IMG/VR virus record: IMGVR_UViG_3300022848_000011
Location: 21,363 to 85,362 of that record
Strand: one strand, 5' to 3'
Length of the DNA: 64,000 bases
From: a virus
Position numbers and translations under genes: made by a program. Under the pieces are notes generated by a model, which saw only the letters and a list, made by a program, of their open reading frames with translations, was not told the origin of the DNA and did not search any database. Below, in pieces: positions 6,494 to 53,372 of this stretch (position 1 is the stretch's first letter; every line of letters begins with the position of its first letter).

Positions 6494-8775
6494 TGACAGA
6501 TATAGGAAAAACTAAGTATCCAAAACAAATTGATGATGACACCAATTTGTTTTTAGTACATGATGGTCTAAAATTAAATTTAGCAATTGATTATACTCCT
6601 GGAGATAACTCCATAGCTGTTTCTGGCGATGAAGCTATTTTTAATAGATTTCCTTCGTCTGGAATTATTACATTAACAGAACAATACTCCGAACCCAAAG
6701 AAAGAGCAATAAGTTTTTTTTATGAATCCAAAGGTGATTTATTGTTTAATCAAATACAATTAATCCCAGGATTCAAAGATGTAAAAAAAATAGCAGATCA
6801 TACTACTGTTACAATGAATGTGTATGACATGCATCATAATTCTCTTAAAGATGCCTTAATTGCCACACAGAACTTTATAGGAATCGAAGGTCAAATTGAC
6901 AACGCACCATTTGGTGGCACACTAGAAGGTCGTTTAAACTTTTTGAAAAAGCTTGTGTATTCTCCTAAAGCATGGTTCTCAGTCAATAACCAAATTGGTA
7001 TTGTTCCTTTCTGTGTCACTTTCAAAGATGAAAGTTTTAGATTAGGTGAAGGAGATGTTCAATATCATTGGTCATTTGGTAATGGAGAAGAATTTGACAA
7101 TAACCCCTCTACTCATGTAATTTCTGCAACAGACCTTGTTCCCGAAAGTAATATATCAAATATACCTATAGAGGTATTAGATGAAGATGGTGGAACAATA
7201 ACAAAATGTTATTCGGAACCAGGAGTTTTTGATGTTAAATTAAGAGTTTCTAACGAATATGGGGAAGATATAGTAGAATTCAAAAATCTTATTATTGCCA
7301 AAGTAGAAGCCCCAAAATTAGCTAAATTTAAAATCAAACCTAGATCTACACAATTATCTTATAACGATCCTCTAAAAATTAGGACTAAAACAAATATATT
7401 TGTAGATTTGGAATTAGAAAACGGAGAAGATCCTAATAATTTAGGATATTCTTTAAGAGGAGAGAAGTTGGATGATAGTAAAAATCCAATTGATCCTATC
7501 ATAGAATATACATGGGACATTGCTGATGATGTGAATCACAGAAACTTGCCAATAACTAAAGCTTTATTTTCAGTTGGCGGTATTTATGATGTTTCTGTAC
7601 GTGTTGATACTAAATTTAATAGTTATAGAATTACAAAATATGATAATGTAATTGATGTTATAGAAGATACTAATCTATGGTTGTGGAATTTTACCAATTA
7701 TAACGAGAATTCTTCAGGAGTCGTAAAAGGATATGAATTTGGTTTAGCAAGCGAAACATTCAAGACTCTAGGAAATCAATCTTTGGTAATAAATAGAGAT
7801 AACTCTTTTTTAGATTATCTGAGTGATAATACCTACGAAGATGGTACAGAAGCTAAGGCTAAATATGAATTTGACAGAAATACAAACTTCACCCGAAAAG
7901 GAAGCTTGAGTTCAGGCAATAATGGCATTAATTTAATGATGTATTCTTCAGGAGGTGATTTGAATTCTCAAAAAGTTAAAATAAATCAATATAACGGTTT
8001 TTCTGATGTTTACTCCAATGTAGATGATGTTAACAATAAACCCTGGAATTGGATAGCTTTAAATTCTGCTAGCAATACTCATTTTTTGCTTGGAACTGGG
8101 GAATTGTCGACGAATAATTTTGAAAATGATGTTGTTGACGAAATGCAACAATTTAATTTATCTGCCTTAGTAGCGACTAGCCCTAAACAATTAAACAGCA
8201 CTTATTTTGAAAATGGAGCAGAAGATCTCTTAAGAAACGTATCTGTATTTAACTCAAGTGGTATTCCTGTTAATGGTTATTTTTCATCTTACAGAAGTGC
8301 ATGGAAAGATAATTCTGGCTATATATTAAAAAATAGTGGTGTTAACAACTTCTTTAGGTTAGCGAGTTTTTATAAAACAAATGGATCTGTAGTAAACGAG
8401 ATTAACACAATAACTAAACTAAACGATTTATCTGGCAGAACCGTACTGGAAGGTCAATTAGTACCTATGAATAGCGGTTTATTTTTCTTTAATAACTCTG
8501 GTCAGGTTTCAGCTTGGAATATTAATTCAAATGTTTGGGAAACGCTTCGACAAAGCTCTGCCACTCTTGCATTTAGATCTTTACAAGATTCAAATGTTTC
8601 ATCTTTTGATAATGAATCTAATACTCTTTTGGTAGCTTCTGATAATAATTCAATGGCTTATCTTAGTTATGATTATAGCGAATCTTCTTTTATAAAATTT
8701 AATTTAACTAATAAAACGTTTTCTAGTGCAGGGGGAAGACCAATTGGTAAACAGTTTATGATGGGAATATTCTAA
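6493..8775 (+). CDS. PKD domain virion protein
   Basis: PFCVTFKDES...YHWSFGNG...YSEPGVFDVKLRVSN. Shares its N-terminal domain with both neighbours. Confidence 0.75.
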   Translation: MTDIGKTKYPKQIDDDTNLFLVHDGLKLNLAIDYTPGDNSIAVSGDEAIFNRFPSSGIITLTEQYSEPKERAISFFYESKGDLLFNQIQLIPGFKDVKKIADHTTVTMNVYDMHHNSLKDALIATQNFIGIEGQIDNAPFGGTLEGRLNFLKKLVYSPKAWFSVNNQIGIVPFCVTFKDESFRLGEGDVQYHWSFGNGEEFDNNPSTHVISATDLVPESNISNIPIEVLDEDGGTITKCYSEPGVFDVKLRVSNEYGEDIVEFKNLIIAKVEAPKLAKFKIKPRSTQLSYNDPLKIRTKTNIFVDLELENGEDPNNLGYSLRGEKLDDSKNPIDPIIEYTWDIADDVNHRNLPITKALFSVGGIYDVSVRVDTKFNSYRITKYDNVIDVIEDTNLWLWNFTNYNENSSGVVKGYEFGLASETFKTLGNQSLVINRDNSFLDYLSDNTYEDGTEAKAKYEFDRNTNFTRKGSLSSGNNGINLMMYSSGGDLNSQKVKINQYNGFSDVYSNVDDVNNKPWNWIALNSASNTHFLLGTGELSTNNFENDVVDEMQQFNLSALVATSPKQLNSTYFENGAEDLLRNVSVFNSSGIPVNGYFSSYRSAWKDNSGYILKNSGVNNFFRLASFYKTNGSVVNEINTITKLNDLSGRTVLEGQLVPMNSGLFFFNNSGQVSAWNINSNVWETLRQSSATLAFRSLQDSNVSSFDNESNTLLVASDNNSMAYLSYDYSESSFIKFNLTNKTFSSAGGRPIGKQFMMGIF

Positions 8776-8794
8776 ATACATTTGAGGACTTAAC

Positions 8795-11700
8795 ATGAAC
8801 AGAATATTTCCACCATCTATAAATTATCCAAATGGACTTGACAATGATTATACATTGTTCCTAGTCCACAATACTACCGAATCTGTCTTATCTGAAAATA
8901 ATTCGGCTTGGGCTTTAGAAATAAGTATCGAGCCTGTTGATCCAGACCAATTAGAAATTTGGGCAGACAATGGGTTTGCTAATTTAAATGGGGAATTATT
9001 ATATTATGATACGGTAGAAAAAAACGAATTTGGCAAAGTAATTAAATTAAAAAATTGTGCTAGAAACATAGGTGGGAAACGAACTGTTTTTCAGAAAAAA
9101 GGAACTGATATACGAAGCTATGTCGTTGCTGAACACCATAACCAATTAACTCAATCTACTATTGCTACAGAAAGATTCTTAAAAGAAATAGAAGATCAGT
9201 TATTATTATTAAATGAAGAAAATACTTGTAAAGATGATGCTTTTTGCCCAGATGTTAATTTTAATATAGAAATCAATGAAGAATTAACTAATGATTGTGA
9301 TGGAATTGTTATTGATTATACAATAAACATAGATGGTGGGTTTTCTAATTTCGAGTTAGATTTTGGAGACGGAAGATCTACAAATAATCCTACTTCTGGA
9401 TCTTATACTTTTCCTAAAAACACAGTAATTGATCCTATCATTAAAATATCTAATAATAACTGCACAATAATACAATCTCCTTTAGTAAGAAATGAATCAA
9501 ATGAACCTCAAGAACAAATTGTCAATAATGTTAATTTAGTACCAATACCACAAATACCAGATTTGCCAGCTTTAACTGTTGGAGATTTAGATGTAGCTGT
9601 ACCGGAAATAGAATTTCCACAATTTTTTGGTCCATGTATCAATTTAAATGGATTTGAAATCAATCCAATTAATATACCTAGTATAATAAGCTTTGGTTCT
9701 CTTAATATTCCTAGTATTATAAATTTTAGTCCTCTTAATATACCAAGTATAATAAGCTTTGGTCCAGCCCCTAGTTTTAGTCCAATAGGCTTTGGTCCTA
9801 TAAGCATACCAAGTGTAATAAACTTTGGTATAGCCCCTAGTTTTAGCCCAATAGGATTTGGTCCTGTAAGTATACCAAGTATAATAAGCTTTGGTCCTGT
9901 AAGTATACCAAGTATAATAAGCTTTGGTCCAGCCCCTAGTTTTAGTCCAATAGGCTTTGGTCCTGCTCCTGAATTTAGTCCGATAGGATTTGGTCCTGCT
10001 CCTAGTTTTAGTCCAATAGGATTTGGGCCTGTAAGTGTACCAAGTATGATAAGTTTTGGACCTTTGAATATACCAAGTATGATAAGTTTTGGACCTTTGA
10101 ATATACCTAGTATAATAAGCTTTGGACCTCTTAATATACCAAGTGTAATAAGTCTTACTACAGTAGATTTCCCTAGTTTGATAGAATTTGGACCTGTTGA
10201 TTTCCCTAGTATGATTAACTTTGGGCCTGCTGATATTCCTTATATAATTACATTTGGACCTGTGGAAGTTCCTAGTATTATCGAATTTGGAACTGTTGAT
10301 ATACCTAGTATTATCGAATTTGGAGAAACGAATATACCTAGTGTTATTACATTTGGACCTGTTGATATTCCTAGTATTATTATATTTGGACCTGTTGATA
10401 TACCTAGTATTATTACATTTGAACCTGTTGATATACCTAGTATTATTACATTTGGACCTGTTGACATACCTAGTGTTATTACATTTGGACCTGTGAATAT
10501 TCCAGATGAAATTACATTTGGTCCTGTGGATTATATCCCAGATGAAATTGGTTTTGGTCCTGTTAATCTTCCCAGTGAAATTGGTTTTGGTCCTGTCAGT
10601 ATTCCCAGTGAAATTGGTTTTGGTCCTGTCAGTCTTCCCAGTGAAATTACATTTGGTCCTGTGGATATTCCAGACGAAATCACATTTGGAGAAGTAAGTA
10701 TTCCTAGTGAAATCACATTTGGAGAAGTAAGTATTCCTAGTGTTATTAACTTTGGCGAGGTAGCTTTTCCTAGTGTTATTAACTTTGGCGAGGTAACTCT
10801 ACCTAGTATTATAAACTTTGGTGAAGTGAGCATTCCTAGCGAAATCACATTCGGTGAAGTAAGTATTCCTAGTGAAATTAACTTCGGTCCTGCTCCTGAT
10901 ATTGGACCTGTTTCATTTGGTCCAGCACCATCTATAAGTGTCACTATACCTGATAGTATGGATTTGAATGTTGATTGGGGGACTATACCAATAATTACTA
11001 TAACTCCAACACACATTGATCCTATACATGTAAATGTTACCTTTGATCCAATGCCTCCCATCCCTCCCATATTAATCAGTTTCACGGGAGATGCTATTCC
11101 TGTTAATGTTGATTGGGGAATTATACCACCTGTAGGGGTGGTCTGGGGTCCTACACCTACAATCGATCCTATTCAATTTGGTCCTGCTAATATTTCACCT
11201 GTTCAATTTGGTCCTGCCAATATTTCACCTGTTCAATTTGGTCCTGCTCCACCGCTTACTGTTACTTGGGGTCCTACACCGACTTTAGAATGTAACGTAA
11301 CTGTTACTTGCCCAAACTCTGCCATGGCTGCACAATCGAATAAAAATTTCACTGAAGAAGACTTTGTAGATGATTTTGAATCGATGGAAATTGAAACTGA
11401 GGGAATTGGAATACCGTCAGAGATTATTATCAGGGCTCCTAAATTTCCTGAAATAAAAATACAGCATGATATTCCAGAATTCATCGAATTAAAAGCTCCA
11501 GATTCTATAGATCTTAATGTGAAACTAGAAAGCAATTTACCTAAATCGATTGAATTGAACTCTTCGAAACTGCCCAAATCAATCCAATTATTAACAAATG
11601 GATTAGAAAAAGGAATATTACTAGATTCTTCTAATGTTTCTATTAAACTTGAGATGCCTATGGAACTTCCAAAGTTACAAATAGATACAAGTAAATTATC

Positions 11701-11905
11701 AGAAGGCATACCTGTAACTGGAATTCCTGATTCGATCCAGGTAAATATGCCAAGTGAAATCACTGCAAAGTTTGAACTCCCTAAAGATTTAGAGGTTCCA
11801 TTAGTATTTAAGGGCGATCCCATTCCTCTTAAGCTCGACACTTCATCATTTAATGATGACGATGATGGACCTTGTTTTAGACTACAACCTTGTGGGAAAA
11901 ACTAA
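8795..11905 (+). CDS. Large virion protein with PKD-like domain and long 11-aa tandem repeat
   Basis: Shared N-terminal domain, LDFGDG PKD motif, then dozens of FGPVDIPS(I/E)I(T/S/G)-type repeats. GAGGA RBS. Confidence 0.75.
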   Translation: MNRIFPPSINYPNGLDNDYTLFLVHNTTESVLSENNSAWALEISIEPVDPDQLEIWADNGFANLNGELLYYDTVEKNEFGKVIKLKNCARNIGGKRTVFQKKGTDIRSYVVAEHHNQLTQSTIATERFLKEIEDQLLLLNEENTCKDDAFCPDVNFNIEINEELTNDCDGIVIDYTINIDGGFSNFELDFGDGRSTNNPTSGSYTFPKNTVIDPIIKISNNNCTIIQSPLVRNESNEPQEQIVNNVNLVPIPQIPDLPALTVGDLDVAVPEIEFPQFFGPCINLNGFEINPINIPSIISFGSLNIPSIINFSPLNIPSIISFGPAPSFSPIGFGPISIPSVINFGIAPSFSPIGFGPVSIPSIISFGPVSIPSIISFGPAPSFSPIGFGPAPEFSPIGFGPAPSFSPIGFGPVSVPSMISFGPLNIPSMISFGPLNIPSIISFGPLNIPSVISLTTVDFPSLIEFGPVDFPSMINFGPADIPYIITFGPVEVPSIIEFGTVDIPSIIEFGETNIPSVITFGPVDIPSIIIFGPVDIPSIITFEPVDIPSIITFGPVDIPSVITFGPVNIPDEITFGPVDYIPDEIGFGPVNLPSEIGFGPVSIPSEIGFGPVSLPSEITFGPVDIPDEITFGEVSIPSEITFGEVSIPSVINFGEVAFPSVINFGEVTLPSIINFGEVSIPSEITFGEVSIPSEINFGPAPDIGPVSFGPAPSISVTIPDSMDLNVDWGTIPIITITPTHIDPIHVNVTFDPMPPIPPILISFTGDAIPVNVDWGIIPPVGVVWGPTPTIDPIQFGPANISPVQFGPANISPVQFGPAPPLTVTWGPTPTLECNVTVTCPNSAMAAQSNKNFTEEDFVDDFESMEIETEGIGIPSEIIIRAPKFPEIKIQHDIPEFIELKAPDSIDLNVKLESNLPKSIELNSSKLPKSIQLLTNGLEKGILLDSSNVSIKLEMPMELPKLQIDTSKLSEGIPVTGIPDSIQVNMPSEITAKFELPKDLEVPLVFKGDPIPLKLDTSSFNDDDDGPCFRLQPCGKN
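9660..11280 (+). repeat. Coding 33-nt (11-aa) imperfect tandem repeat array
   Basis: Units such as TTTGGACCTGTTGATATACCTAGTATTATTACA recur in frame. Boundaries are approximate. Confidence 0.9.
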
Positions 11906-12714
11906 TGAGAATAAAAAAATCTAATAATAACAGTTATGTTAATGAATCTGGATTTTGGATTAGGGATTTTACACAAATAAAAAATAGAAGTATTGATATA
12001 AATAAATTCTTTGATAAAGAAGATATGGATTTATTTATAAAAAACGAAAAAATGAATAAAAGATTAATGAAAGCAACTAAGCCTAAAGAACAAAAAAAAG
12101 TTTTGATTGTTTCTGATGGTTATGCTTTAAAGGAAAAACAATTATTTTTAGACAATATTGATAATAATACATATGTTATATTGACAAATAATTCTATTAG
12201 ATATTGGGAATTAAATCATAATATTTATTTGGTAAATAATCCATATGAAGATTGTCTCAAGTATATGTCTAGCAAGATTAAAAATTGTTTATCTTCATGT
12301 AGAACTAATCCTAATTACTTAAATAAAATTAAGTCAAATATTACTTTATATCAACCAACAAAAAATTCTTTTTATTCTGGGGTTTATGATTGGTATAATG
12401 TTAAATTAGATGATTATAGAAGTAGTATTACTGCTGCATTACATTATGCGTATTTAATGAATCCTGAAAGAATTTGTCTTTTATGTACTGATAGTTGCCA
12501 CGAAATTAAAAAACCTGGAATGGTTCAATCATTTTATGGTTTATATCAATATGAACAAAATTTTTTATCAGAAAAAATACTAGATACTATGTTGTTTTGG
12601 CTTCTTGATAAGGATGTAGATGTCAGAATTCATTCTTCTGGACATGAGTATAAAAACGCCAAATACATAGAAGAGGAAAATATATTAGATTTTATAGGTG
12701 GTAAAAATGAGTAA
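11890..12714 (+). CDS. Maf/DUF115-like (sialyltransferase-like fold) protein
   Basis: KKVLIVSDGYAL...SSITAALHYAYLMNPERICLLCTD resembles the MAF_flag10 'SV...AL.LA..MG...I.L.G.D' motif. True start is probably ATG 11905. Confidence 0.45.
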   Translation: MWEKLMRIKKSNNNSYVNESGFWIRDFTQIKNRSIDINKFFDKEDMDLFIKNEKMNKRLMKATKPKEQKKVLIVSDGYALKEKQLFLDNIDNNTYVILTNNSIRYWELNHNIYLVNNPYEDCLKYMSSKIKNCLSSCRTNPNYLNKIKSNITLYQPTKNSFYSGVYDWYNVKLDDYRSSITAALHYAYLMNPERICLLCTDSCHEIKKPGMVQSFYGLYQYEQNFLSEKILDTMLFWLLDKDVDVRIHSSGHEYKNAKYIEEENILDFIGGKNE

Positions 12715-14370: not shown

Positions 14371-14410
14371 ATAAGACTTGTGGATTATGTCTGCAAGTCT
14401 TATTTTTTTG
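14371..14410 (+). terminator. Rho-independent terminator
   Basis: ATAAGACTTGTGGA-ttatg-TCTGCAAGTCTTAT stem followed by a T tract. Confidence 0.7.
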
Positions 14411-14425
14411 TACTTTACTAAAATA

Positions 14426-15352
14426 ATGGTTAAAGTAATATCTAAGTCACCTATAATTAAAACAAAATTATCACCTATATCATATATAAAAAATTACAAT
14501 AAAATATTGTTAAAAAGACATACAGGTGGTCTTGGTGATATCTTGATGCATAGAATGTTATTCAAAAACATAAAAAAACAAATACCTAAATCCAAATTAC
14601 ACTTTGCATGTCCTTCTTACTATTTAAAGGCTGTTGAAGATTCTGAGTTTTTAGATCAAGTAATTGATGTAAATAATGTAAATGATTCAGAATATGCAGT
14701 TGTTTATACTACTACCCATCAAGCTAATAAATATGAATCATGCATAGCTCCAGAATCGGATAAACACAGATCTGATATTTGGGGGCAATCTTTTGGTTTA
14801 GAACTTAAATATCATGATATGGATTTTAACTTAAACCAAAATCTAATTAATCAATACAAAAATAAGTATGGAGATTTTATTTGTTTTTGCCCTGTTTCAG
14901 CTATATTAACCAAAAACCTTCTTAATCACCAAATAGATGTTTTTCTAGATAATTTCACAAATTTGATATGTTTGCATAAGAATAAAATAGATTATTTACC
15001 AAATAATCTTAAACAAATAAACAATACTTCTATAAGTGAGTGGATGCATATAATCGCTGCTTCAAAAGGTGTTATATCTGTTGATAGTGCAGCTTTTCAC
15101 ATGGCAGGTGGTTTAGGAAAGCCTTTACTTGGTATTTTTACATATGCAGATGGTACTATTTATGGCAAGTATTATGATCATATATTGATACAAAAACATA
15201 GAAAAAATGGAAATTGGGATTGTGGACCATGTTATTCTTGGTCTAATTGCTGTAAAACTAAACAAAATATAAAACCTTGTTTGACAGAAATTAGTAAATA
15301 TGAGTTGGTTGAAGGCATAAATACATTTAAAGATAAATATAATTTAAAATAA
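14426..15352 (+). CDS. Glycosyltransferase family 9 (heptosyltransferase-like)
   Basis: GGLGDILM and VISVDSAAFHMAGGLGKPLLGIF are GT9 signatures; C-terminal CGPC...C...CL. Start moved to the ATG after the terminator. Confidence 0.85.
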   Translation: MVKVISKSPIIKTKLSPISYIKNYNKILLKRHTGGLGDILMHRMLFKNIKKQIPKSKLHFACPSYYLKAVEDSEFLDQVIDVNNVNDSEYAVVYTTTHQANKYESCIAPESDKHRSDIWGQSFGLELKYHDMDFNLNQNLINQYKNKYGDFICFCPVSAILTKNLLNHQIDVFLDNFTNLICLHKNKIDYLPNNLKQINNTSISEWMHIIAASKGVISVDSAAFHMAGGLGKPLLGIFTYADGTIYGKYYDHILIQKHRKNGNWDCGPCYSWSNCCKTKQNIKPCLTEISKYELVEGINTFKDKYNLK

Positions 15353-15375: not shown

Positions 15376-15609
15376 GTGAGGCTAATGCCAAATTTAATTA
15401 AAACAGGAGATACAAAGATAATTACAAAAGATGGGGAAGTCTTTGTAAACATATCGTTGGAACTTAATATTAAATTAGATGGTAACAATTTGTCGATACA
15501 GGCAAATGATACTAATGAAATTAAAAAACAAGAAGATAAAACTGATTGGGTAATACCAAGTTTTAAAAGCAAAAATAAAAAGAAAATAAATTTTGGCGAT
15601 AAAGAATAA
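15376..15609 (+). CDS. Hypothetical protein
   Basis: Small ORF directly upstream of the actin-like gene; likely start ATG 15385. Confidence 0.6.
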   Translation: MRLMPNLIKTGDTKIITKDGEVFVNISLELNIKLDGNNLSIQANDTNEIKKQEDKTDWVIPSFKSKNKKKINFGDKE

Positions 15610-15629
15610 AATAATAGAAAGGTGATAAA

Positions 15630-16640
15630 ATGAATGTTTTGGGTTTCGATGTTGGTACTTACAATTTAATCTCTTGTTCAAGACAAGAAAACAATTACGA
15701 ATACAAAAGAGAAGTAAATGGTTTTGTCAAGTTAAATATTGAATCTAGAGCAATATTTAACATGATGGAAAAATCAGGCGTAAAATTAGTAGAATTCCCT
15801 GATGAAAACGTGGCTTATGCACTAGGAAAAAACGCTGTAGAAATGGCACGCACTTTACCTAATGTAGAATTGTTGCGTCCTATGAAAGATGGGTGTCTTA
15901 ATCCAAAAGAACATTATGCTCAAGAAATTATGAGTATGATGATTCACGGAATGATAGGAGAAATCGAACAAGACAATACAACTCTTTTTTATAGTGTCCC
16001 TGCGAATGCACTTAATGAAGAAACTGATGCTGATTACCATCAGAAAGTGTTACAACAAATTTTTGATGATTATGAAAGTGATCAGGGTTTTAAACTTGAT
16101 GCCAGACCAATCAATGAAGCATTAGCTCTTGTGTATGCAGAACTAGAAGAAAAAGCCTGGACGGGGATCGGGATCTCATGCGGGTCGGGGATGGTAAATA
16201 TTTGTTATTCTATATTTGGAGCACCCGTCTTCCAATTTTCTATTGTAAATAGTGGTGATTGGATTGATAAACAAGCATCAAAAGCATTAGGTGAAACAAC
16301 TACCACCTATGTAAATAGACAAAAAGAAAAAATCGACTTCACAATACAACAAGATGAGCTAGTTTTCAGAGCAATCAAAACTCAATATGAAATCATGATT
16401 CATAATACTGTTAATAAAATTGTTGAAGGATTCGAAAAAGCAGGACATAACACAAGAACAGATAAACCCGTTGATATTATTTTGGCTGGCGGAACCGCAA
16501 CTCCAAACGGATTCGAAGAATTGTTTAAAGAAGCATTAAATAAAGTTAAATTGCCGATTAAAGTTGGAGAAATTATCAAGCCCAAAGAACCAGTTAAATC
16601 AGTAGCAAGAGGTTGTTTGGTTGCTGCTGAAAATGCATAA
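15630..16640 (+). CDS. Actin-like ATPase (volactin/MreB-related)
   Basis: Phosphate-1 GFDVGT, connect-1 INEALA, phosphate-2 ISCGSGMVN, adenosine ILAGGT, connect-2 SVARG. GAAAGGTG RBS. Confidence 0.9.
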   Translation: MNVLGFDVGTYNLISCSRQENNYEYKREVNGFVKLNIESRAIFNMMEKSGVKLVEFPDENVAYALGKNAVEMARTLPNVELLRPMKDGCLNPKEHYAQEIMSMMIHGMIGEIEQDNTTLFYSVPANALNEETDADYHQKVLQQIFDDYESDQGFKLDARPINEALALVYAELEEKAWTGIGISCGSGMVNICYSIFGAPVFQFSIVNSGDWIDKQASKALGETTTTYVNRQKEKIDFTIQQDELVFRAIKTQYEIMIHNTVNKIVEGFEKAGHNTRTDKPVDIILAGGTATPNGFEELFKEALNKVKLPIKVGEIIKPKEPVKSVARGCLVAAENA

Positions 16641-16670
16641 TTAGTAAATTAAAAGAAAGAGAGAAAGAAT

Positions 16671-16904
16671 ATGGATAAGAAAGTTTCAGATTTAGGAGCA
16701 GGTGCCTATTTGTTAATGCATGGCTATAAAGTTATTGGAAGACAAGGCAGAGATATTATGTTTGAAGTAGAAGGTGAAAATGCAGATAGAGAATTCGAAG
16801 AAAGAAAGATGGAATACTTATCTAGCGAATTTCACAGATTTGATTCATATATAATGTCATTAAAGAAAATGAGTGATAATAGTTACTATGGTAAAAAAAG
16901 ATGA
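16671..16904 (+). CDS. Small DUF5659-like protein
   Basis: SDLGAGAYLLMHGYKV pattern resembles DUF5659 phage proteins. Confidence 0.5.
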   Translation: MDKKVSDLGAGAYLLMHGYKVIGRQGRDIMFEVEGENADREFEERKMEYLSSEFHRFDSYIMSLKKMSDNSYYGKKR

Positions 16905-18232
16905 GTGAACAAAACAGTTTTGTAAATCCAATGGAACAATTAAAAGATAAGTTCGACAAAGAGATTGAAACATTAATTGATAGAGAGTTAATTGCAAAAT
17001 TGGAACCAATCATTAATCAACAAAGGCAACAAGTAAATCCGCAAGTTGATCAGCAACCTACGCAAAGTAGTATGGGGCGACCCACCACATCAACTGATAA
17101 TATGGCTAGATCAATTAACTCCACAGATCAACAAAGATCTTCACAGAGAAATAACCAAGGAGTGATTAAATCGCCTAAGTGGAAAGGAATCAGGGGCTTG
17201 TGGCGATCTATTTGGAAAGGTAATTCTTTTGATAATCCAGACTATCTTAATAATTTAAGATTAAACAATCAATTACCTTGGCAAAATAGAAAGAATGAAA
17301 ATTTAATTACCTTAGAAGAATATAGTCATTTGAAAGAATGTGCAAATATGTTCTTTGAAGATAATTTTGATTTCCAACACCTTAACGAAAACATGAGTCT
17401 TGCTGGACCAATTATAGCAAATTTCAAACAAGAATTAGTAAAAACCTTGAGAGATCAATATACCCGAATAACTAAGTTCCTCAAAGACCAAGATAACAAC
17501 ACTGAACAACCAAGTCATCCTGTCGCTGCAAGTATGCCACCTGCTTCGACAACTACAAGTAGATCTCAAGACGTAGAAATTGAAGATGATGACGATGATG
17601 ATGATGAAATAAAAGGAATCGAAAGAGAACTAGGAATAGATCCTAACATTAATGATTACTTGGATGATGAAGAAGACGATGATGATGAAGACACTACTCC
17701 AACTGTTCGAAATCAAACATCAGATGCAGAAGATAAAGCTAGAAAAGATGCAGAAGATAAAGCTAGAAAAGACGCAGAAGATAAAGCTAGAAAAGACGCA
17801 GAAGATAAAGCTAGAAAAGACGCAGAAGATAAAGCTAGAAAAGACGCAGAAGATAAGGCTAGAAAAGACGCAGAAGATAAAGCTAGAAAAGACGCAGAAG
17901 ATAAGGCTAGAAAAGACGCAGAAGATAAAGCTAGAAAAGATGCAGAGCCAGATGAGTTAGATGATATTGAAGATGATATTGAAGATGATATTGAAGATGA
18001 TATTGATCTTAGCAATGTAAGTATAGAAGATTTGATAGACAGGTTACCAGAAAGACATAAACTTACTGGGCAGAATAGTTATCAGGATTTAAAGCAAAAA
18101 TTAAAAAATAATAACATGTCTCAGGATGAATTTGACCAAGAATTAGATGATCTTAAAAACACATTTAGCAATCTTGCCCCATCAAAAAAATCCACCAAAA
18201 AAGATTACACAGACACTTTTGAAGATTTTTAG
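16901..18232 (+). CDS. Acidic low-complexity protein with (DAEDKARK)9 repeat
   Basis: ATGA overlap with the upstream gene; poly-D tracts and repeat visible. Confidence 0.75.
   Translation: MSEQNSFVNPMEQLKDKFDKEIETLIDRELIAKLEPIINQQRQQVNPQVDQQPTQSSMGRPTTSTDNMARSINSTDQQRSSQRNNQGVIKSPKWKGIRGLWRSIWKGNSFDNPDYLNNLRLNNQLPWQNRKNENLITLEEYSHLKECANMFFEDNFDFQHLNENMSLAGPIIANFKQELVKTLRDQYTRITKFLKDQDNNTEQPSHPVAASMPPASTTTSRSQDVEIEDDDDDDDEIKGIERELGIDPNINDYLDDEEDDDDEDTTPTVRNQTSDAEDKARKDAEDKARKDAEDKARKDAEDKARKDAEDKARKDAEDKARKDAEDKARKDAEDKARKDAEDKARKDAEPDELDDIEDDIEDDIEDDIDLSNVSIEDLIDRLPERHKLTGQNSYQDLKQKLKNNNMSQDEFDQELDDLKNTFSNLAPSKKSTKKDYTDTFEDF
17723..17938 (+). repeat. 9 x 24-nt coding tandem repeat
   Basis: GA(T/C)GCAGAAGATAA(A/G)GCTAGAAAA repeated nine times. 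Confidence 0.95.
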
Positions 18233-35943: not shown

Positions 35944-38499
35944 ATGGCTTGGTGGGATATTTATAAAACATGGAACTACAACCTTAGTAGAGATCCATTA
36001 AATCAACAATCAATAGAAGATCGTGCAATTGGAGGAGGATTAACCTCTCCCGGTGGTGTTCCTGATATTCGTGACCAAAATGTTGGAGGTATGACCGATA
36101 CAAACTTCCGACAATCTAATGATTTTATCGACCTTCAAACTGTAGAAGATAGATTATCTAGATATAAAGAATACGAAAGATTATTATCAGTTCCAGAAGT
36201 CGAAATGGCATTAACTGTCATTGCTGATGAAGCCTGTATTGCAGGCAACACTATGATATCAACACTGTTTGATGGATATAGAACCATAAGTTGGTTGGAA
36301 AAACGATGGCAACAAGATCAAAAACCGTTTTTAACCTATTGTTGGGACTTTGAAAAAGAAGACTATACTCTTGACTGGGCCTATAATCCAAGAAAAGTTA
36401 AAACAGAAGAAACTGTATGGGTTGCTCTTGATGATGGAAATCATTTTGTCACCACGCTTGACCATAGAATATTACTTAGTAATCAAGAATGGAGACATGC
36501 AGGTGATCTAAGAGAAAAAGATGAACTTATCCCTTTTTACAAAATGCCACCACATCCTGAATTAAATAACATTAAACACAATCAATTTTCTAGAATACGT
36601 ACAAATAAATATGGTTGGGTCAACGAAAGACAATTTGTTGATATATGGAAAGGTCAAGAACCAGATCAAAAAACATTAGAAACTCTTAGATATGGTAACT
36701 ATATCGCAAATGGATTCACTCGTGAACAAATCGCTCACATGTTCGAAAGAGATACAAGAAGCCATAATGAATGGGTTAAGGATATAGGATTTACACATAA
36801 AGAACTTAGATGGTTGGGGAAAAAAGAAAAAACCCGAAAAGTTATTGGCGTTTTTCCTCACAAAGTATTAGACGTATATGATCTATCAGTGAAAACACAC
36901 CAAAACTTCTGTACTGATGCAGTCGTTATGCACAATTGTCAAGAAGACGATGATGGTAATTTATTCAAAATATTATCAAAAAATGAGGAAGTGGTCAAGG
37001 AATTAGAAACGATTTGCTTTGGGAAAAGATATCTCAACCTGAATAGAAACCTAAGAGGGAAGATTAAACGACTTTGCCTAAAAGGCGATCTGTTTGTTGA
37101 ATTACTTTCTGCCCCAGAAATGCCGAAAAAAGGTGTTCTGAAACTAGCAGAATTACCACCAGAAGAAATGTTTAAAATTGTTACAAATAAAGATCGAGTT
37201 GTTGAATACCAACAATCAGGTAATGGACCCGATATTGATGTTTTGATGAAATCGACAGATGATGATATCGAATTACAAAAGAGTACTGCTATTAGATTTC
37301 ATCCAAAACAAATCATTCACTTCAAACTAGGTGACGAAAAATCATTCTTCTATCCATACGGTAAATCAATAGTAGAACCAGCTAGAAGTCCTGCTCATCA
37401 ATTAAGACTCATGGAAGATGCTGTAATGGTATATCGATTGGCTAGAAGCCCAGAAAGAAGAGTTTTTTATATTGATGTTCAACAATTACCTCCATTCAAA
37501 GCAGAAGCATTTGTTAGTAGATTTAAAGATCAATTCAAGAAAAAGAAAGTTGCTTTAGATAAAGGAAAAGGAGGAGCTTCTGCTGTCGAAGAAAGATGGC
37601 ATCCACCTGCTATTGATGAAGATATTTGGTTGCCAATTCGACCAGGATCAAATACTAGAATTGAAACATTACCTGGGGCTACGAATTTAGGTGAAATTGG
37701 AGACTTAGAATATTTCCAATCTAAATTATTTACAGCATTAAATTTTCCAAAAGATTATTTTAATACTGATGATATCTCCAAAACGAGAATTACCCTTTCT
37801 TCACAAGATGCTAGATTTGCAAGGATGATAGAAAGAATACAAGGAGATGTTGCTGATGGCATCCATCAATTATGCGAAACACATTTAGAAATGCGTGGAT
37901 TTCCATATGAAATGTACAGAGATATTAAAATAAAAATGACTCGTCCATCTCCTTATAAAGAAATAAGCGAAATGGAGGTAATTAATCATAGATTAAATAT
38001 TATAGCTCAATTAAAAGGTATGATGATTATGAGTGATTATGATCTATTAACAAGATATTGGAATGCTACAGAAACAGATGCTGAAGATATAATTGCTAGA
38101 GCTAAAGCTCAAAAAATGGAAGATATGAAATTTCAAATATTAGGGCAAAATCCAGCATTATTAGGAATGGGAATACCAGGACAAGAAGGTGATGAAAACG
38201 AAATGGGAACAGGTGCTGATGGGCCAAATCCAATGTTAGGACCTACACCTGATAAACAACCAGATGGTAACCAAGAAAATAAAGAATCTCCAGATGAACA
38301 AAATATTAATCCCGATAATCCCGAAAAAGATAATTTAAATAATCAAGATACAGACTCTCAACCTAATATGGATTCAAAAGTCGAACCTTTACCAATACCA
38401 TCTGATGAAGATCTTGAAAAATATAATCTAGAATTACAAGATTATGACAGATATCAAGATGCTGAAGATATTGATTTTGGTACCGAAGAAGGATTGTAA
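35944..38499 (+). CDS. Portal protein (T4 gp20-like) with intein
   Basis: YGKSIVEPA...QLRLMEDAVMVYRLARSPERRVFYIDV...IETLPGATNLGEIGDLEYF are gp20 signatures. Confidence 0.95.
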   Translation: MAWWDIYKTWNYNLSRDPLNQQSIEDRAIGGGLTSPGGVPDIRDQNVGGMTDTNFRQSNDFIDLQTVEDRLSRYKEYERLLSVPEVEMALTVIADEACIAGNTMISTLFDGYRTISWLEKRWQQDQKPFLTYCWDFEKEDYTLDWAYNPRKVKTEETVWVALDDGNHFVTTLDHRILLSNQEWRHAGDLREKDELIPFYKMPPHPELNNIKHNQFSRIRTNKYGWVNERQFVDIWKGQEPDQKTLETLRYGNYIANGFTREQIAHMFERDTRSHNEWVKDIGFTHKELRWLGKKEKTRKVIGVFPHKVLDVYDLSVKTHQNFCTDAVVMHNCQEDDDGNLFKILSKNEEVVKELETICFGKRYLNLNRNLRGKIKRLCLKGDLFVELLSAPEMPKKGVLKLAELPPEEMFKIVTNKDRVVEYQQSGNGPDIDVLMKSTDDDIELQKSTAIRFHPKQIIHFKLGDEKSFFYPYGKSIVEPARSPAHQLRLMEDAVMVYRLARSPERRVFYIDVQQLPPFKAEAFVSRFKDQFKKKKVALDKGKGGASAVEERWHPPAIDEDIWLPIRPGSNTRIETLPGATNLGEIGDLEYFQSKLFTALNFPKDYFNTDDISKTRITLSSQDARFARMIERIQGDVADGIHQLCETHLEMRGFPYEMYRDIKIKMTRPSPYKEISEMEVINHRLNIIAQLKGMMIMSDYDLLTRYWNATETDAEDIIARAKAQKMEDMKFQILGQNPALLGMGIPGQEGDENEMGTGADGPNPMLGPTPDKQPDGNQENKESPDEQNINPDNPEKDNLNNQDTDSQPNMDSKVEPLPIPSDEDLEKYNLELQDYDRYQDAEDIDFGTEEGL
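36235..36936 (+). mobile_element. 234-aa intein in the portal gene
   Basis: Block A CIAGNT, block B TTLDHRIL, block F VYDLSVKTHQNF, block G VMHN followed by extein Cys. Confidence 0.92.
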
Positions 38500-50999: not shown

Positions 51000-53372
51000 A
51001 TGTATGTTTGTGAAAGAAATAAAGATGGCACCTTAACTAAAAACAATTGGTTATTGGTAAAAGGTGCTTACGTTTCAGCAGTAACCGTTTGTAAAAACAA
51101 AATAGTTAGAACTGTTGTCCCAGATCCTAATGAATTGCCATTTCAAGAAAATCAAGGAAATCAAGGTCCACAAGGTCCACAAGGTCCACAAGGTCCACAA
51201 GGAACACAAGGTCCACAAGGTCCACAAGGAACACAAGGAACACAAGGAACACAAGGAACACAAGGAACACAAGGTCCACAAGGTCCACAAGGTCCACAAG
51301 GATTAGCAGTAGCAGCAGACTCTTATTGGACTTTAACTGATGGAAAGCTACATCAAGATACTGGAGTCAATGTAGGAATCGATACAGATGACCCTACTGA
51401 GCGTTTACACGTTGTTGGTAACATAAAACTAGATAACGGAAGGATTCTGCTGGGTTCTGATCCTAACCTACAGTCTATTGGAAGGGGAACTTTCGATACG
51501 AATACTGGTGGTCAAAACGGCGTATCTTTGTTTTGCACGGCAGGTTACGAGCTTAATTGGCAAACAGGTAGGCTTTCGAACTATAATGGTGCTTATCAAG
51601 ATTTCTATATTGATACGCCTAATTTATTTGTCAATCCTTCTGTTGGAATTGGTAACACAGCCAGCGGTGACTACTCAAGTGCAATGGGTCGTAGTAATTC
51701 AGCCAGCGGCAACACCTCAAGTGCATTTGGTTATTCCAACACAGCCAGCGGTGAAAACTCAAGTGCAGTTGGTTATTCCAACACAGCCAGCGGTGACCGT
51801 TCAAGTGCAGTTGGTTACCTCAACACAGCCAGCGTCAACTACTCAAGTGCAGTTGGTTACAGCAACACAGCCAGCGGTGACCGTTCAAGTGCATTTGGTT
51901 TCGGCAACACAGCCAGCGGTGAACGTTCAAGTGCAGTTGGTTACCGAGCAAACGCCGGGGCTTTGAACTCACTAGCGGTTGGAATAAATGTATTTACCCA
52001 TACTACTGGTCTAGCCTCAGTTAATTTTGGTGTGTTGAACAACAGCGTTGGTGGAACACTTAATGGCAGCACCGGCGATATAACCGGTACGATTACAGCC
52101 TTAACAACCCAAGGTAGGTTAACTACTGCGGTTGGGATCAGAAACAGCACTACGGGTAACCAATCAAGTGCAGTAGGTTACCTCAACACAGCCAGCGGTA
52201 CTGATTCAAGTGCAGTTGGTCACCAGAATACAGCCAGCGGCAACTACTCAAGTGCAGTAGGTTACCAGAATACAGCCAGCGGCAACTACTCAAGTGCAGT
52301 AGGTTACCAGAATACAGCCAGCGGTACTGATTCAAGTGCAGTTGGTCACCAGAATACAGCCAGCGGCAACTACTCAAGTGCAGTTGGTTACGGCAACACA
52401 GCCAGCGGTGACCGTTCAAGTGCAGTTGGTGTTACCAACACAGCCAGCGGTTACCAATCAAGTGCGGTTGGTCGCCTCAACACAGCCAGCGGTTACAACT
52501 CAAGTGCGGTTGGTCGCCTCAACACAGCCAGCGGTAGCCAATCAAGTGCATTTGGTTACCGAGCAAACGCCGGGGCTTTGAACTCACTAGCGGTTGGAAG
52601 AAGTGTATTTACCCATACTACTGGTCTAGCCTCAGTTAATTTTGGTGTGTTGAACAACAGCGTTGGTGGAACACTTAATGTCACCACCGGCGTTATAGCC
52701 GGTTCGATTACAGCCTTAACAACCCAAGGTAGGTTAACTACTGCGGTTGGGATCAGAAACAGCACTACGGGTAACCAATCAAGTGCAGTTGGTTACCTCA
52801 ACACAGCCAGCGGCAACAACTCAAGTGCAGTTGGTTACGACAACACAGCCAGCGGTGACCAATCAAGTGCAGTAGGTTACCAGAATACAGCCAGCGGTAC
52901 TGATTCAAGTGCAGTTGGTCACCAGAATACAGCCAGCGGCAACTACTTAAGTGCAGTAGGTTACCAGAATACAGCCAGCGGTGAACGTTCAAGTGCAGTT
53001 GGTACCTACAACATAGCCAGCGGTTTGCGTTCAAGTGCATTTGGTCACCTCAACACAGCCAGCGGTGACCGTTCAAGTGCATTTGGTTACCGAGCTAGAA
53101 CTACAATTGCCAATTCAACCGAAATAGGTTACTGGAGTAATAGTACAACTCGTGGCAGTGCTATGAGACTTCATGGTGCTACTGGTATGGCTTCTCATAC
53201 ACTGCAAAATCGAGCAACAGCTTACACTGACGGTGGATCAACAGCCGGTAGTGAAGCAGATGACAGTTTATCAAGAGGCATGTACTCGGTCAGAAGAGAC
53301 GGAGACGTTATACTGATCGATATAAATATTGCTGGAACTATTAAAACACTAAGTCTAGGAACAGCAATCTAA
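51000..53372 (+). CDS. Tail fibre/adhesin with collagen-like segment and YadA-head-like 14-aa repeats
   Basis: (GPQ/GTQ)n; [19 protein letters not shown]; many NTASGxxSSAVGxx repeats; GAGGT RBS. Confidence 0.85.
51155..51301 (+). repeat. 9-nt collagen-like coding repeat
   Basis: GGTCCACAA/GGAACACAA tandem units. Confidence 0.9.
51651..53090 (+). repeat. 42-nt coding repeat arrays with a ~270-nt block duplicated at offset 615
   Basis: AACACAGCCAGCGG...TCAAGTGCAGTTGGT units; 51927..52198 closely matches 52542..52813. Confidence 0.9.

What the first reader, a model, noticed from the sequence alone, without database searches (positions are those of the whole stretch)
15376..18232. Phage operon built around a volactin-like actin: candidate viral cytoskeleton
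Seen: an intact actin-fold ATPase co-oriented with a small upstream ORF, a DUF5659-like protein and an acidic protein with a charged helical repeat. From recall, motifs RPMKDG, LFYSVPA, YHQKVL, PINEALA.VYAEL, TGIGISCGSGMVN, GDWID, GGTATPNGF and SVARG.LVAA fit the haloarchaeal cell-shape actin volactin better than MreB or ParM. Established: phage cytomotive filaments are mostly tubulin (PhuZ), with few actins such as AlpC of CGP3. Inference: a filament plus adaptor system that positions phage DNA or capsids, or reshapes the host.
Basis: partly seen in the sequence, partly recalled or inferred. Interest (0 to 1): 0.78.

Follow-up and report, generated by a model that had tools for sequence, protein, structure and literature searches.

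The report
Volactin-family actin operon of huge phages
A clade of uncultivated half-megabase phages that have no tubulin all carry one well-conserved actin-like gene with two small dedicated neighbour genes, which probably builds a phage-made filament inside the infected bacterium, though no experiment has tested this.

Summary
ORF 15630-16640 is an intact actin-fold ATPase. It matches Pfam Volactin end to end (213 bits, cut-off 35), and MreB and MamK only weakly.

The window is part of an 85 kb IMG/VR record estimated 17% complete, with a T4-like capsid, portal and terminase. The same gene (52-63% identity) is in 72 viral loci, GenBank LR756511.1 (595 kb) and complete 572 and 533 kb genomes. 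Five genomes tested had one copy each and no tubulin.

A terminator hairpin follows the upstream 191-aa gene in 41 of 47 distinct junctions. The unit then reads:
- a GT9-like glycosyltransferase;
- a 74-aa protein with a conserved C-terminal peptide;
- the actin;
- a small alpha/beta protein that is weakly DUF5659-like;
- a hypervariable repeat protein.

The small protein-actin-small protein triad is complete in 53 of 53 loci with both flanks. The acidic protein is conserved only by position.

In trees the phage clade lies inside the Volactin family, far from MreB, but outside the haloarchaeal branch.

Polymerisation and function are inferred, not shown. A complex prediction of the actin with the upstream protein gave weak support only. 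I found no paper describing this. I rate it a new variant of a known kind (phage cytoskeletal systems), of moderate to high interest.

The parts
14371..14410 (+). Intrinsic-terminator-like hairpin (15 pairs followed by a T run) just after the 191-aa gene. It marks the upstream end of the actin transcription unit.
   Evidence: Found and read. A hairpin plus T run lies at the same junction in 41 of 47 distinct related junctions, with unrelated stem sequences. The counts at the GT-UP, UP-actin and actin-DN junctions are 0 of 48, 0 of 43 and 1 of 38.
14427..15352 (+). GT9-like (heptosyltransferase-like) glycosyltransferase, first gene of the unit. The listed TTG start at 14378 lies inside the terminator hairpin, so ATG 14427 is the likelier start (inference).
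   Evidence: Pfam Glyco_transf_9 at E 1.7e-6, 28 bits against a cut-off of 22. NCBIfam heptosyltransferase models match below their cut-offs. It is present upstream of the actin in 50 of 53 loci with both flanks, and also 2 kb from the divergent actin of L073.
15385..15609 (+). 74-aa protein (UP74, called 'UP77' in my scripts). It has a conserved N-terminal part, a variable linker and a conserved C-terminal peptide W-x-[IV]-P-D-F ... K-[IL]-N-F-G-K. Candidate actin-binding regulator or adaptor.
   Evidence: Family alignments. Present in 62 of 62 loci with at least 1.5 kb upstream, and within 60 nt of the actin in 48 of those. Where it is separated, a GIY-YIG/NUMOD3 homing endonuclease gene was identified in the gap in the one locus scanned, L036. 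Complex prediction with the actin gave weak support: 0.38 against a best control of 0.00. No Pfam, PHROGs or NCBIfam family.
15630..16640 (+). Volactin-family actin-fold ATPase, 336 aa, intact.
   Evidence: Pfam PF25216 at 213.2 bits, full length. AlphaFold2 model with pLDDT 86.1 and pTM 0.85. Best structural matches are MamK filament (Z 26.4, rmsd 3.3, 293 aligned), BeeR (25.0) and crenactin (23.9). D7, G9, T10, E163, G185, G187, G287 and G288 are invariant in 30 sequences.
16671..16904 (+). 77-aa small alpha/beta protein (DN), weakly DUF5659-like. It is a single domain here, but a tandem pair of about 153 aa in most relatives.
   Evidence: Family alignments. Model pLDDT 88.5 with topology strand-helix-strand-strand-helix-helix. 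Present in 59 of 59 loci with at least 3 kb downstream. Pfam on 23 relatives gave LidA_Long_CC in 12 and DUF5659 in 4.
16901..18232 (+). 443-aa acidic repeat protein. It is the local form of a hypervariable gene that always follows DN.
   Evidence: pI 4.49 and repeats. Sequence relatives in 3 of 72 loci. A plus-strand gene of at least 150 aa starts within 500 nt after DN in 61 related loci (62 counting the window). Of the 50 distinct genes, 31 hold in-frame tandem repeats. The link to the commonest form (c14) is weak and indirect.

Best explanation
**What it is.** The 336-aa ORF encodes an actin-like ATPase of the Volactin family. It is a single-copy, strongly conserved gene in a clade of uncultivated phages of about 0.46-0.6 Mb with T4-like capsids. 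These phages have no tubulin.

**The unit.** It lies in a five-gene transcription unit that begins right after a conserved terminator:
1. a GT9-like glycosyltransferase;
2. a 74-aa protein with a conserved C-terminal peptide;
3. the actin;
4. a small alpha/beta protein of unknown function;
5. a hypervariable, repeat-rich protein, acidic in this window.

**How it most likely works.** The actin binds and hydrolyses ATP and forms filaments in the infected bacterium. The two small proteins would act as its dedicated regulators or cargo adaptors, and the repeat protein as a long flexible tether. Together they would organise replication or virion assembly in space, much as the PhuZ tubulin spindle does in other jumbo phages and AlpC/AlpA does in prophage CGP3.

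**Shown:** family membership, fold, conserved nucleotide-binding loops, conserved gene order, operon boundary, distribution.

**Inferred:**
- polymerisation, about 0.7;
- partner binding, about 0.5 for the 74-aa protein;
- the spatial-organisation role, about 0.35-0.4.
For: **Family and fold.**
- Pfam Volactin at 213 bits against a cut-off of 35, full length.
- Volactin itself forms dynamic filaments in Haloferax volcanii (PMC10869688; abstract and passages read).
- The model has pLDDT 86.1. Its best structural matches are filament formers: MamK Z 26.4, BeeR 25.0, crenactin 23.9 and MreB 23.6.
- The loops at the ASKHA phosphate-1, phosphate-2 and adenosine positions are invariant in 30 sequences at 52-63% identity, plus one at 32%.
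- In 3 of the 72 viral loci and one MAG contig (L077) a LAGLIDADG intein sits inside the actin gene. In L068-L070 it lies exactly inside the phosphate-2 loop, GIS^CGSG, which is typical of sites under strong constraint.

**Distribution.**
- 72 IMG/VR loci and LR756511.1, 595 kb.
- One copy in each of 5 genomes, 3 of them at least 91% complete (572, 533 and 459 kb). Tubulin is in 0 of these 5.

**Linkage.**
- The triad is complete in 53 of 53 loci with both flanks.
- It persists although other genes lie inside it in some loci. The one gap gene scanned between UP and the actin (L036) is a GIY-YIG/NUMOD3 homing endonuclease. The one scanned between the actin and DN (L022) is terminase-like.
- A terminator is conserved before the unit and absent inside it.

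**Partner.** Complex prediction of the actin with the 74-aa protein gave weak support: score 0.38, best of 3 controls 0.00. The mark was reached by 58 of 80 solved complexes and 2 of 110 mismatched pairs. At 0.60 or under it was reached by only 7 of those 80 and by both mismatches that passed. The runs agree in at least 83% of contacts, and the partner's pLDDT is at least 51.

**Relatives.** Other Volactin-family proteins are fused to HU or ParB-HTH DNA-binding domains. This shows that some members are coupled to DNA.
Against: - No experiment or expression data exist for this clade.
- Structure alone does not separate it clearly from non-polymerising ASKHA proteins: DnaK's nucleotide-binding domain scores Z 22.4 against 26.4 for MamK.
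- No member of the family has a solved structure. A profile of 30 sequences finds nothing in the PDB at E <= 0.01.
- Conserved gene order among related phages is weak evidence of functional coupling, because neighbours outside the unit (the 191-aa gene and others) are conserved as well.
- The two small proteins are found only in this clade and not next to more distant viral volactins.
- They are not basic, and DN has no recognisable fold match (best Z 4.8).
- The complex score is in the range where passes are more often wrong than right.
- The first gene of the unit is a glycosyltransferase, which this model does not explain.
Confidence: 0.6

Rival explanations
1. Host-shape or host-size manipulation. 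The phage actin copolymerises with, replaces or disturbs the host's MreB-type cytoskeleton. This would change cell shape or block division, so that the cell can hold very large virions.
For: Volactin's described role is in cell-shape transition (PMC10869688). MreB is among the closest folds, with Z 23.6. The unit starts with a GT9-like glycosyltransferase, a family that acts in cell-envelope synthesis.
Against: Similarity to MreB is remote. The NCBIfam MreB models give 30 and 24 bits against cut-offs of 293 and 366, and the tree places MreB across a long branch with 100% support. Copolymerisation with host MreB is therefore unlikely. The translation begins directly with the phosphate-1 strand and has no N-terminal extension of the kind that anchors Gram-negative MreB to the membrane. 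That comparison rests on recalled knowledge.
Confidence: 0.15
2. A non-polymerising ASKHA ATPase. The protein works as a monomer or dimer, for example as a chaperone-like or sugar- or nucleotide-handling ATPase that acts with the glycosyltransferase. On this view the Volactin family is not uniformly cytoskeletal.
For: Hsp70 nucleotide-binding domains score nearly as well in structure comparison (Z 22.4). The gene is co-transcribed with a glycosyltransferase, and that glycosyltransferase is also near the divergent actin of L073. One family member is fused to a Wzz/BY-kinase polysaccharide module (P0221).
Against: The best-scoring folds are all filament formers. The only characterised family member polymerises. 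No Pfam or NCBIfam kinase or Hsp70 family is listed for the protein.
Confidence: 0.12
3. A ParMRC/AlpAC-type DNA segregation system. It would keep the phage genome as a plasmid-like episome, or move replicating genomes, with one of the small proteins as the DNA-binding adaptor.
For: A small gene lies upstream of the actin and another downstream, as with alpA-alpC and parM-parR (PMC4446434, passages read). Relatives are fused to HU and ParB-HTH domains. IMG/VR classes one 533 kb record as a provirus.
Against: The gaps between the genes are only 20-30 nt and hold no iterons. The only tandem DNA repeats nearby are in frame and coding, with periods that are multiples of 3 and unrelated sequences between loci. 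Both small proteins are acidic to neutral. DN has no clear fold match, only weak KH-like rows at Z about 4. The genomes carry T4-type lytic modules.
Confidence: 0.1

Closest known systems
Volactin (VolA, HVO_2015) of Haloferax volcanii, Pfam PF25216
   Same: Same Pfam family, matched over its full length. The window protein is 32-35% identical to haloarchaeal family members on Haloarcula, Halogeometricum and Natrinema replicons. Size and domain layout are the same.
   Different: The phage clade is a separate, well-supported branch (97-99%) inside a 100%-supported group of unlabelled metagenomic sequences. It is not nested in the haloarchaeal branch. It is encoded by a bacteriophage-type genome of about 30% G+C with Shine-Dalgarno-like sites. 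Its partners are different: the haloarchaeal loci show none of the phage neighbours. HVO_2015 itself could not be fetched and compared.
AlpC/AlpA/alpS of Corynebacterium prophage CGP3
   Same: A phage-encoded actin-like protein co-transcribed with a small upstream partner. It is proposed to organise phage DNA replication in space (PMC4446434).
   Different: The actin family is different by profile assignment: the window protein is Volactin. No AlpC sequence was at hand, so identity to it was not measured. There is no sign of a DNA-binding adaptor or of binding-site repeats. The phage here is a lytic-type huge phage, not a cryptic prophage. There are additional conserved partners.
PhuZ tubulin spindle of nucleus-forming jumbo phages
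   Same: A phage-encoded cytoskeletal NTPase in very large phages. It positions the replication compartment and delivers capsids (PMC13282480 and PMC13359090, passages read). This is the proposed functional analogue.
   Different: PhuZ is a tubulin, not an actin. Tubulin is absent from 5 of 5 genomes of this clade (for actin copy number, for tubulin). I did not search for a phage-nucleus shell protein.
ParM/ParR/parC plasmid segregation and MamK, MreB and BeeR filaments
   Same: The same actin fold: MamK Z 26.4, BeeR 25.0, MreB 23.6 and R1 ParM at Foldseek rank 50. ParM is also followed by a small gene.
   Different: Sequence similarity is marginal: MamK 30.8 bits against a cut-off of 400, and MreB 30.4 against 293. 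No ParM family match is listed. There is no centromere-like array.

Membership tests
Volactin family (Pfam PF25216) | Profile score above the curated gathering cut-off, over the whole domain | tested here: met
   213.2 bits against a cut-off of 35, profile positions 3-321 of 321. The genome search gave 212.8 bits.
Volactin family (Pfam PF25216) | Groups with known archaeal members rather than with MreB in a tree | tested here: met
   All 150 (FastTree) or 55 (IQ-TREE quick) Volactin-type rows, including 3 haloarchaeal ones, are separated from MreB at 100% support. The phage clade is not inside the haloarchaeal branch. ParM, MamK and FtsA were not in the trees.
Volactin family (Pfam PF25216) | Dynamic ATP-dependent filaments in cells | not testable with these tools
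   Shown for H. volcanii volactin only (PMC10869688).
ASKHA / actin-fold ATPase | Two-lobed fold with conserved phosphate-1, phosphate-2 and adenosine loops | tested here: met
   The model has pLDDT 86.1 and Z 22-26 to actin-fold chains over about 290 residues. D7, G9 and T10 lie in the first hairpin, G185 and G187 in the hairpin at 179-195, and G287 and G288 after strand 281-286. All are invariant. Assigning these loops to the named motifs rests on established knowledge of the fold, not on a residue-level alignment.
MreB (Pfam PF06723; NCBIfam NF010539, TIGR00904) | Full-length match above the curated cut-off | tested here: not met
   Pfam gives 33.4 bits, but only over residues 59-131, which is 73 of 327 profile positions. 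NCBIfam gives 30.4 bits against 293 and 23.6 against 365.75.
MamK (NCBIfam NF040964) | Score above the curated cut-off | tested here: not met
   30.8 bits against a cut-off of 400, although MamK is the best structural match.
ParMRC / AlpAC-type segregation locus | Centromere-like repeat array next to the operon and a DNA-binding adaptor | tested here: inconclusive
   The gaps of 20-30 nt hold no array. The nearby repeats are coding. The small proteins have median pI 5.3 and 6.2. DNA binding cannot be tested here, and a site elsewhere in the genome is not excluded.
DUF5659 (Pfam PF18903), for the 77-aa downstream protein | Profile match | tested here: inconclusive
   The window protein has no match at E <= 0.1. 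Of 23 relatives, 4 match with best E 2.4e-4, and 12 of 23 match LidA_Long_CC positions of about 72-137, one above its cut-off at 32.8 bits against 26.5. The Atlas rows at 0.87-0.88 are leads only.
PhuZ/TubZ-type phage tubulin system | Tubulin-family GTPase in the genome | tested here: not met
   PF00091 was found in 0 of 5 genomes of the clade, and in 0 of the 3 that are at least 90% complete.

The most novel reading that the evidence does not exclude
A previously undescribed actin-based cytoskeleton encoded by a widespread clade of half-megabase phages that lack tubulin. Its parts would be a Volactin-type filament, a peptide-bearing 74-aa regulator, a dimeric or tandem small alpha/beta adaptor, and a hypervariable extended tether. 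Together they would form a four-part machine that positions phage DNA, capsids or a replication compartment. That would make it the actin counterpart of the PhuZ spindle, built from partner proteins with no known family.
Probability: 0.33. Interest if true: 0.82.

Novelty: new variant of a known kind. Interest (0 to 1): 0.64.

Why it matters
Phage-encoded cytoskeletons are known mainly from the PhuZ tubulin of nucleus-forming jumbo phages and a few actin-like proteins of prophages and plasmid-prophages.

Here a different actin family, described so far only as a haloarchaeal cell-shape protein, is a conserved single-copy gene of phages of about 0.5 Mb from many metagenomes. It comes with clade-specific partner genes. 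This offers three things:
- a concrete, clonable system for asking how the largest phages organise infection without tubulin;
- a wider known range for the Volactin family, which also includes bacterial HU and ParB-HTH fusions;
- a family with no solved structure as a target for filament cryo-EM.

I found no description of it in print. The search for 'volactin' found 17 papers, of which I saw the 14 listed titles and abstract openings, and none is on phages. 'PF25216' and 'DUF5659' found 0 papers. In the jumbo-phage papers PMC7824862, PMC13282480, PMC13359090 and PMC7162821, searches for 'actin' gave only unrelated words.

Tried and rejected
**Genomic context by exact protein look-up.** I used the search for related loci instead.

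**Taxonomy of distant relatives.** The listing of cluster members gave no names or accessions for any of the 10 representatives asked about. Most rows of the trees are therefore unlabelled, and HVO_2015 itself could not be fetched. Three haloarchaeal replicon genes stand in for archaeal volactins.

**Fold of the 77-aa downstream protein.** Foldseek against the PDB found no match at E <= 0.001 (best 0.28, designed ferredoxin folds). VIA-align wide gave a best Z of 4.8, with KH-domain rows at Z about 4. This is below the level that means anything, so no fold is assigned.

**Sequence link to solved structures.** phmmer found only MreB at E 0.3. A profile of 30 sequences found nothing at E <= 0.01.

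**Promoters.** The sigma-70-like scan found fewer sites than shuffled sequence (35 against a mean of 48.8). The T4 late-promoter word TATAAATA was not enriched: 18 against a mean of 13.1, and 13 of 100 shuffles were as high. No promoter is assigned.

**Expression.** No RNA holder was listed among the sequencing runs. Read laying was not used. The runs that hold the stretch are labelled salt lake metagenome, 2018: 10 rows hold half of the words or more, each under its own study code, possibly from one campaign, and possibly including the source sample.

**Direct homology of the 443-aa acidic protein to the common downstream family c14.** The profile gave E 0.16 in a set of 51 sequences, which is not significant. 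The only link is an indirect chain through L004, L002 and L066 (E 8e-7 to 1e-5 against c14; tblastn 46% over about 53 residues to L004).

**Partners outside the clade.** Profiles of the two small proteins and of the 191-aa protein found nothing in 8 other viral volactin loci (L073, L092-L097) or in the 3 haloarchaeal loci. Only the glycosyltransferase recurred, in L073. Viral scans with the sister representatives P0123, P0129 and P0126 gave 4, 0 and 1 loci, none with these partners.

**Rows left out.**
- One search dropped 26 of 150 representatives: fragments and intein-bearing proteins with under 80% of columns filled.
- One of 7 MreB loci (L084) was left out, because the start of its 461-aa frame was unclear.
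- One search used 60 of the 156 rows.
- One search left out L073 (32% identity), and it counts loci, not distinct sequences: 56 distinct actins among 72 loci.

**Considered and rejected.** I rejected the idea that the 24-nt array in the acidic gene is a centromere. In related loci the arrays have periods that are multiples of three and unrelated sequences.


Full report
**What is in the sequence.** It matches Pfam Volactin (PF25216) at E 8.4e-63, 213.2 bits against a cut-off of 35, across profile positions 3-321 of 321. MreB_Mbl matches only residues 59-131 at 33.4 bits. NCBIfam gives MamK 30.8 bits (cut-off 400) and MreB 30.4 bits (cut-off 293). PHROGs has no family for it.

**What the element is.** The window is bases 21363-85362 of an 85 kb IMG/VR virus record that CheckV rates 17% complete. 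It encodes a T4-type major capsid protein (Gp23, 293 bits), a T4-type portal that carries an intein, a large terminase, a DnaG-type primase and tail-like proteins. G+C is about 30%. Both the actin gene and the gene before it are preceded by AAGGTGA-like ribosome-binding stretches. Runs labelled salt lake metagenome hold the stretch.

**How widespread the gene is.**
- A protein search found 1074 relatives at E <= 0.001. The best 120 are 57-63% identical and sit on contigs of up to 634 kb.
- A scan of IMG/VR returned 72 loci, 71 of them at 52-61% identity. They include contigs of 572, 533, 459, 254 and 245 kb.
- GenBank's uncultured phage LR756511.1 (595 kb) has the gene at 52.7% identity, and LR745208.1 (485 kb) has a distant one at 30%.
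- In the species-genome collection only 6 loci matched. All are in MAGs of mutually discordant phyla, one on a 546 kb contig. Four of them (L074-L077) carry the same phage neighbour genes, so they are most simply phage contigs binned with bacteria.
- Five genomes of the clade each have exactly one Volactin gene and no tubulin. Three of them are at least 91% complete, and one has terminal repeats.

**Fold and active site.** With a 30-sequence alignment, AlphaFold2 gives pLDDT 86.1 and pTM 0.85. Foldseek's top matches are MreB, MamK and BeeR. By VIA-align the order is MamK filament (Z 26.4, rmsd 3.3, 293 aligned), BeeR (25.0), crenactin (23.9) and MreB (23.6), with DnaK's ATPase domain at 22.4 and eukaryotic actin at 22.3. 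The fold is therefore certain, but structure alone only mildly favours filament formers.

D7, G9, T10, E163, G185, G187, G287 and G288 are invariant. They fall in the hairpins and loops where the ASKHA fold has its phosphate-1, catalytic, phosphate-2 and adenosine motifs. That assignment uses the secondary structure and established knowledge of the fold.

In three viral loci and one MAG contig the gene is interrupted by a LAGLIDADG intein. In the three viral loci it is inserted exactly at GIS^CGSG in the phosphate-2 loop, with Cys at both splice junctions. The Atlas lists a 57-member viral cluster of such intein-bearing volactins. No solved structure is related by sequence.

**Place in the family.** A search of 1.84 billion representatives found 877 relatives at E <= 0.001 and 231 at E <= 1e-30. 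I built a FastTree of 156 rows and an IQ-TREE (quick, LG+C20) of 60 rows, with 6 or 5 MreB sequences as outgroup. In both:
- the Volactin-type rows separate from MreB at 100% support;
- the window's phage clade is one branch (99% and 97%) inside a 100%-supported group with 11 or 8 unlabelled metagenomic representatives;
- three haloarchaeal genes (32-35% identical to the window protein) form a different branch (99% and 98%);
- two other viral volactins (L073, LR745208.1) lie in a third.

The phage gene is thus a deep lineage of its own, not a recent capture from haloarchaea. Other family members are fused to HU (an Acidobacteriota-labelled cluster of 69), to a ParB HTH domain, or to a Wzz/BY-kinase module.

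**The neighbours.** In the 71 clade loci, the small upstream protein is present in 62 of 62 loci with at least 1.5 kb upstream. The small downstream protein is present in 59 of 59 with at least 3 kb downstream. Both are present in 53 of 53 with both flanks, and the glycosyltransferase in 50 of those 53. These counts are of loci, with 56 distinct actins among the 72.

Where the genes are not adjacent, other genes lie between them. Of these I scanned one of each kind: a GIY-YIG/NUMOD3 homing endonuclease between the upstream gene and the actin (L036), an unassigned gene (L023, no significant Pfam family) and a terminase-like gene (L022) between the actin and the downstream gene.

*Upstream protein.* Its real start is probably ATG 15385, giving 74 aa. 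It has a conserved N-terminal part, a variable linker and a conserved C-terminal peptide W-x-[IV]-P-D-F...K-[IL]-N-F-G-K.

*Downstream protein.* It is a small alpha/beta domain (model pLDDT 88.5). It is single here and in a few relatives, but a tandem pair of about 153 aa in most. It has no fold match worth naming and only weak family links.

*The 443-aa acidic protein.* It has sequence relatives in 3 of 72 loci. However, a plus-strand gene of 150 to 1250 aa follows the downstream gene in 61 related loci (62 counting the window). Of the 50 distinct genes, 31 hold in-frame tandem repeats of unrelated sequence. Their repeat density is three times that of the rest of the loci (0.064 against 0.021). 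The commonest form carries an N-terminal R-G-x-W-D-R-F-K-N motif, and the window protein has G-I-R-G-L-W-R-S-I-W at a similar place. Homology is only indirect.

**Operon boundary.** A 15-pair hairpin with a T run lies just after the 191-aa gene (14371-14410). A hairpin plus T run is at the same junction in 41 of 47 distinct relatives, with different stem sequences. None is found at the next two junctions (0 of 48 and 0 of 43) and one of 38 at the actin-downstream junction. The unit is therefore glycosyltransferase, 74-aa protein, actin, 77-aa protein and repeat protein, and it ends against a convergent gene. No promoter could be assigned.

**Test of one partner.** Complex prediction of the actin with the 74-aa protein, both given as alignments, returned weak support: score 0.38, best of 3 controls 0.00. 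The mark was reached by 58 of 80 solved complexes and 2 of 110 mismatched pairs. At 0.60 or under it was reached by only 7 of those 80 and by both mismatches that passed. The runs agree in at least 83% of contacts, and the partner's pLDDT is at least 51. This is a hint, not evidence of binding.

**Interpretation.** The most economical reading is a phage-encoded actin-type filament system with clade-specific accessory proteins. It would serve spatial organisation of infection in very large phages that lack the PhuZ tubulin. The analogies are to PhuZ and AlpC/AlpA.

Against a ParR/AlpA-type DNA adaptor: the small proteins are acidic to neutral, and there is no room for a repeat array next to the genes. 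The rivals that remain open are host-shape manipulation, a non-polymerising ATPase working with the glycosyltransferase, and episome segregation. Polymerisation, partner binding and function are all untested.

**Novelty.** I found no paper on phage volactins. Supplements were closed and may list such genes. The Atlas already labels viral clusters automatically as 'Volactin domain-containing protein', so the bare annotation exists in databases. The conserved operon, the partners, the absence of tubulin and the clade-wide distribution are what is new here. I file it as a new variant of a known kind (phage-encoded cytoskeletal systems).

Noticed in passing
L068:4604-6730, L069/L070:4426-6540, L077:5336-7507; proteins P0121, P0127: In some phages the actin gene carries a LAGLIDADG intein of about 370 aa. 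In L068-L070 it is inserted exactly in the phosphate-2 loop (GIS^CGSG), with Cys at both junctions. L077 has an interrupted actin frame of 723 aa at the same profile position (183/184). The Atlas lists a 57-member viral cluster of such proteins.
   Followed up: partly
window 35944-38499: The T4-type portal gene of this window also carries an intein (Intein_splicing at residues 154-331, ahead of the Portal_T4 match at 345-716).
   Followed up: no
window 14371-14410 and the same junction in L002-L069: A terminator hairpin is conserved in position but not in sequence after the 191-aa gene, in 41 of 47 distinct junctions. The next gene's ATG follows within about 10-25 nt, often after an ACTCT/ACTAT-like word, and without an obvious ribosome-binding site in many loci. 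It may be a clade-specific promoter or a leaderless start.
   Followed up: partly
proteins P0173, P0182, P0221; Atlas cluster: Volactin-family domains are fused to HU (a cluster of 69, labelled Acidobacteriota), to a ParB HTH domain, and to a Wzz plus BY-kinase-like ParA module. This suggests DNA-linked and envelope-linked roles for bacterial members of a family known only from haloarchaea.
   Followed up: partly
L036:5237-6004; L022:7544-9232; L023:7020-7883: Extra genes lie inside the conserved triad in some loci. L036 has a GIY-YIG/NUMOD3 homing endonuclease between the small upstream gene and the actin. L022 has a 562-aa terminase-N-like protein, and L023 an unassigned protein of about 290 aa, between the actin and the downstream gene.
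   Followed up: partly
window 11890-12714 and L023:1677-2567: The conserved 274-300 aa gene upstream has a weak, below-cut-off match to MptE-like/DUF115 (E 7.8e-5, 23 bits against 34.6). From recall, that family includes Maf-type glycosyltransferases. Together with the GT9-like gene this hints at a glycosylation module next to the tail-like genes.
   Followed up: no
window 51000-53372: A 790-aa protein has collagen repeats, 11 YadA-head repeats and an ice-binding-like beta roll. It sits in the window's G+C peak (0.39-0.46 against about 0.30 elsewhere) and is probably a fibre or adhesin.
   Followed up: no
L073:5905-6993 and 8648-9937: A viral contig with a distant volactin (32% identity) lacks the two small partner genes but has the same GT9-like glycosyltransferase family 2 kb downstream (E 3.5e-63 to the clade's profile).
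   Followed up: no
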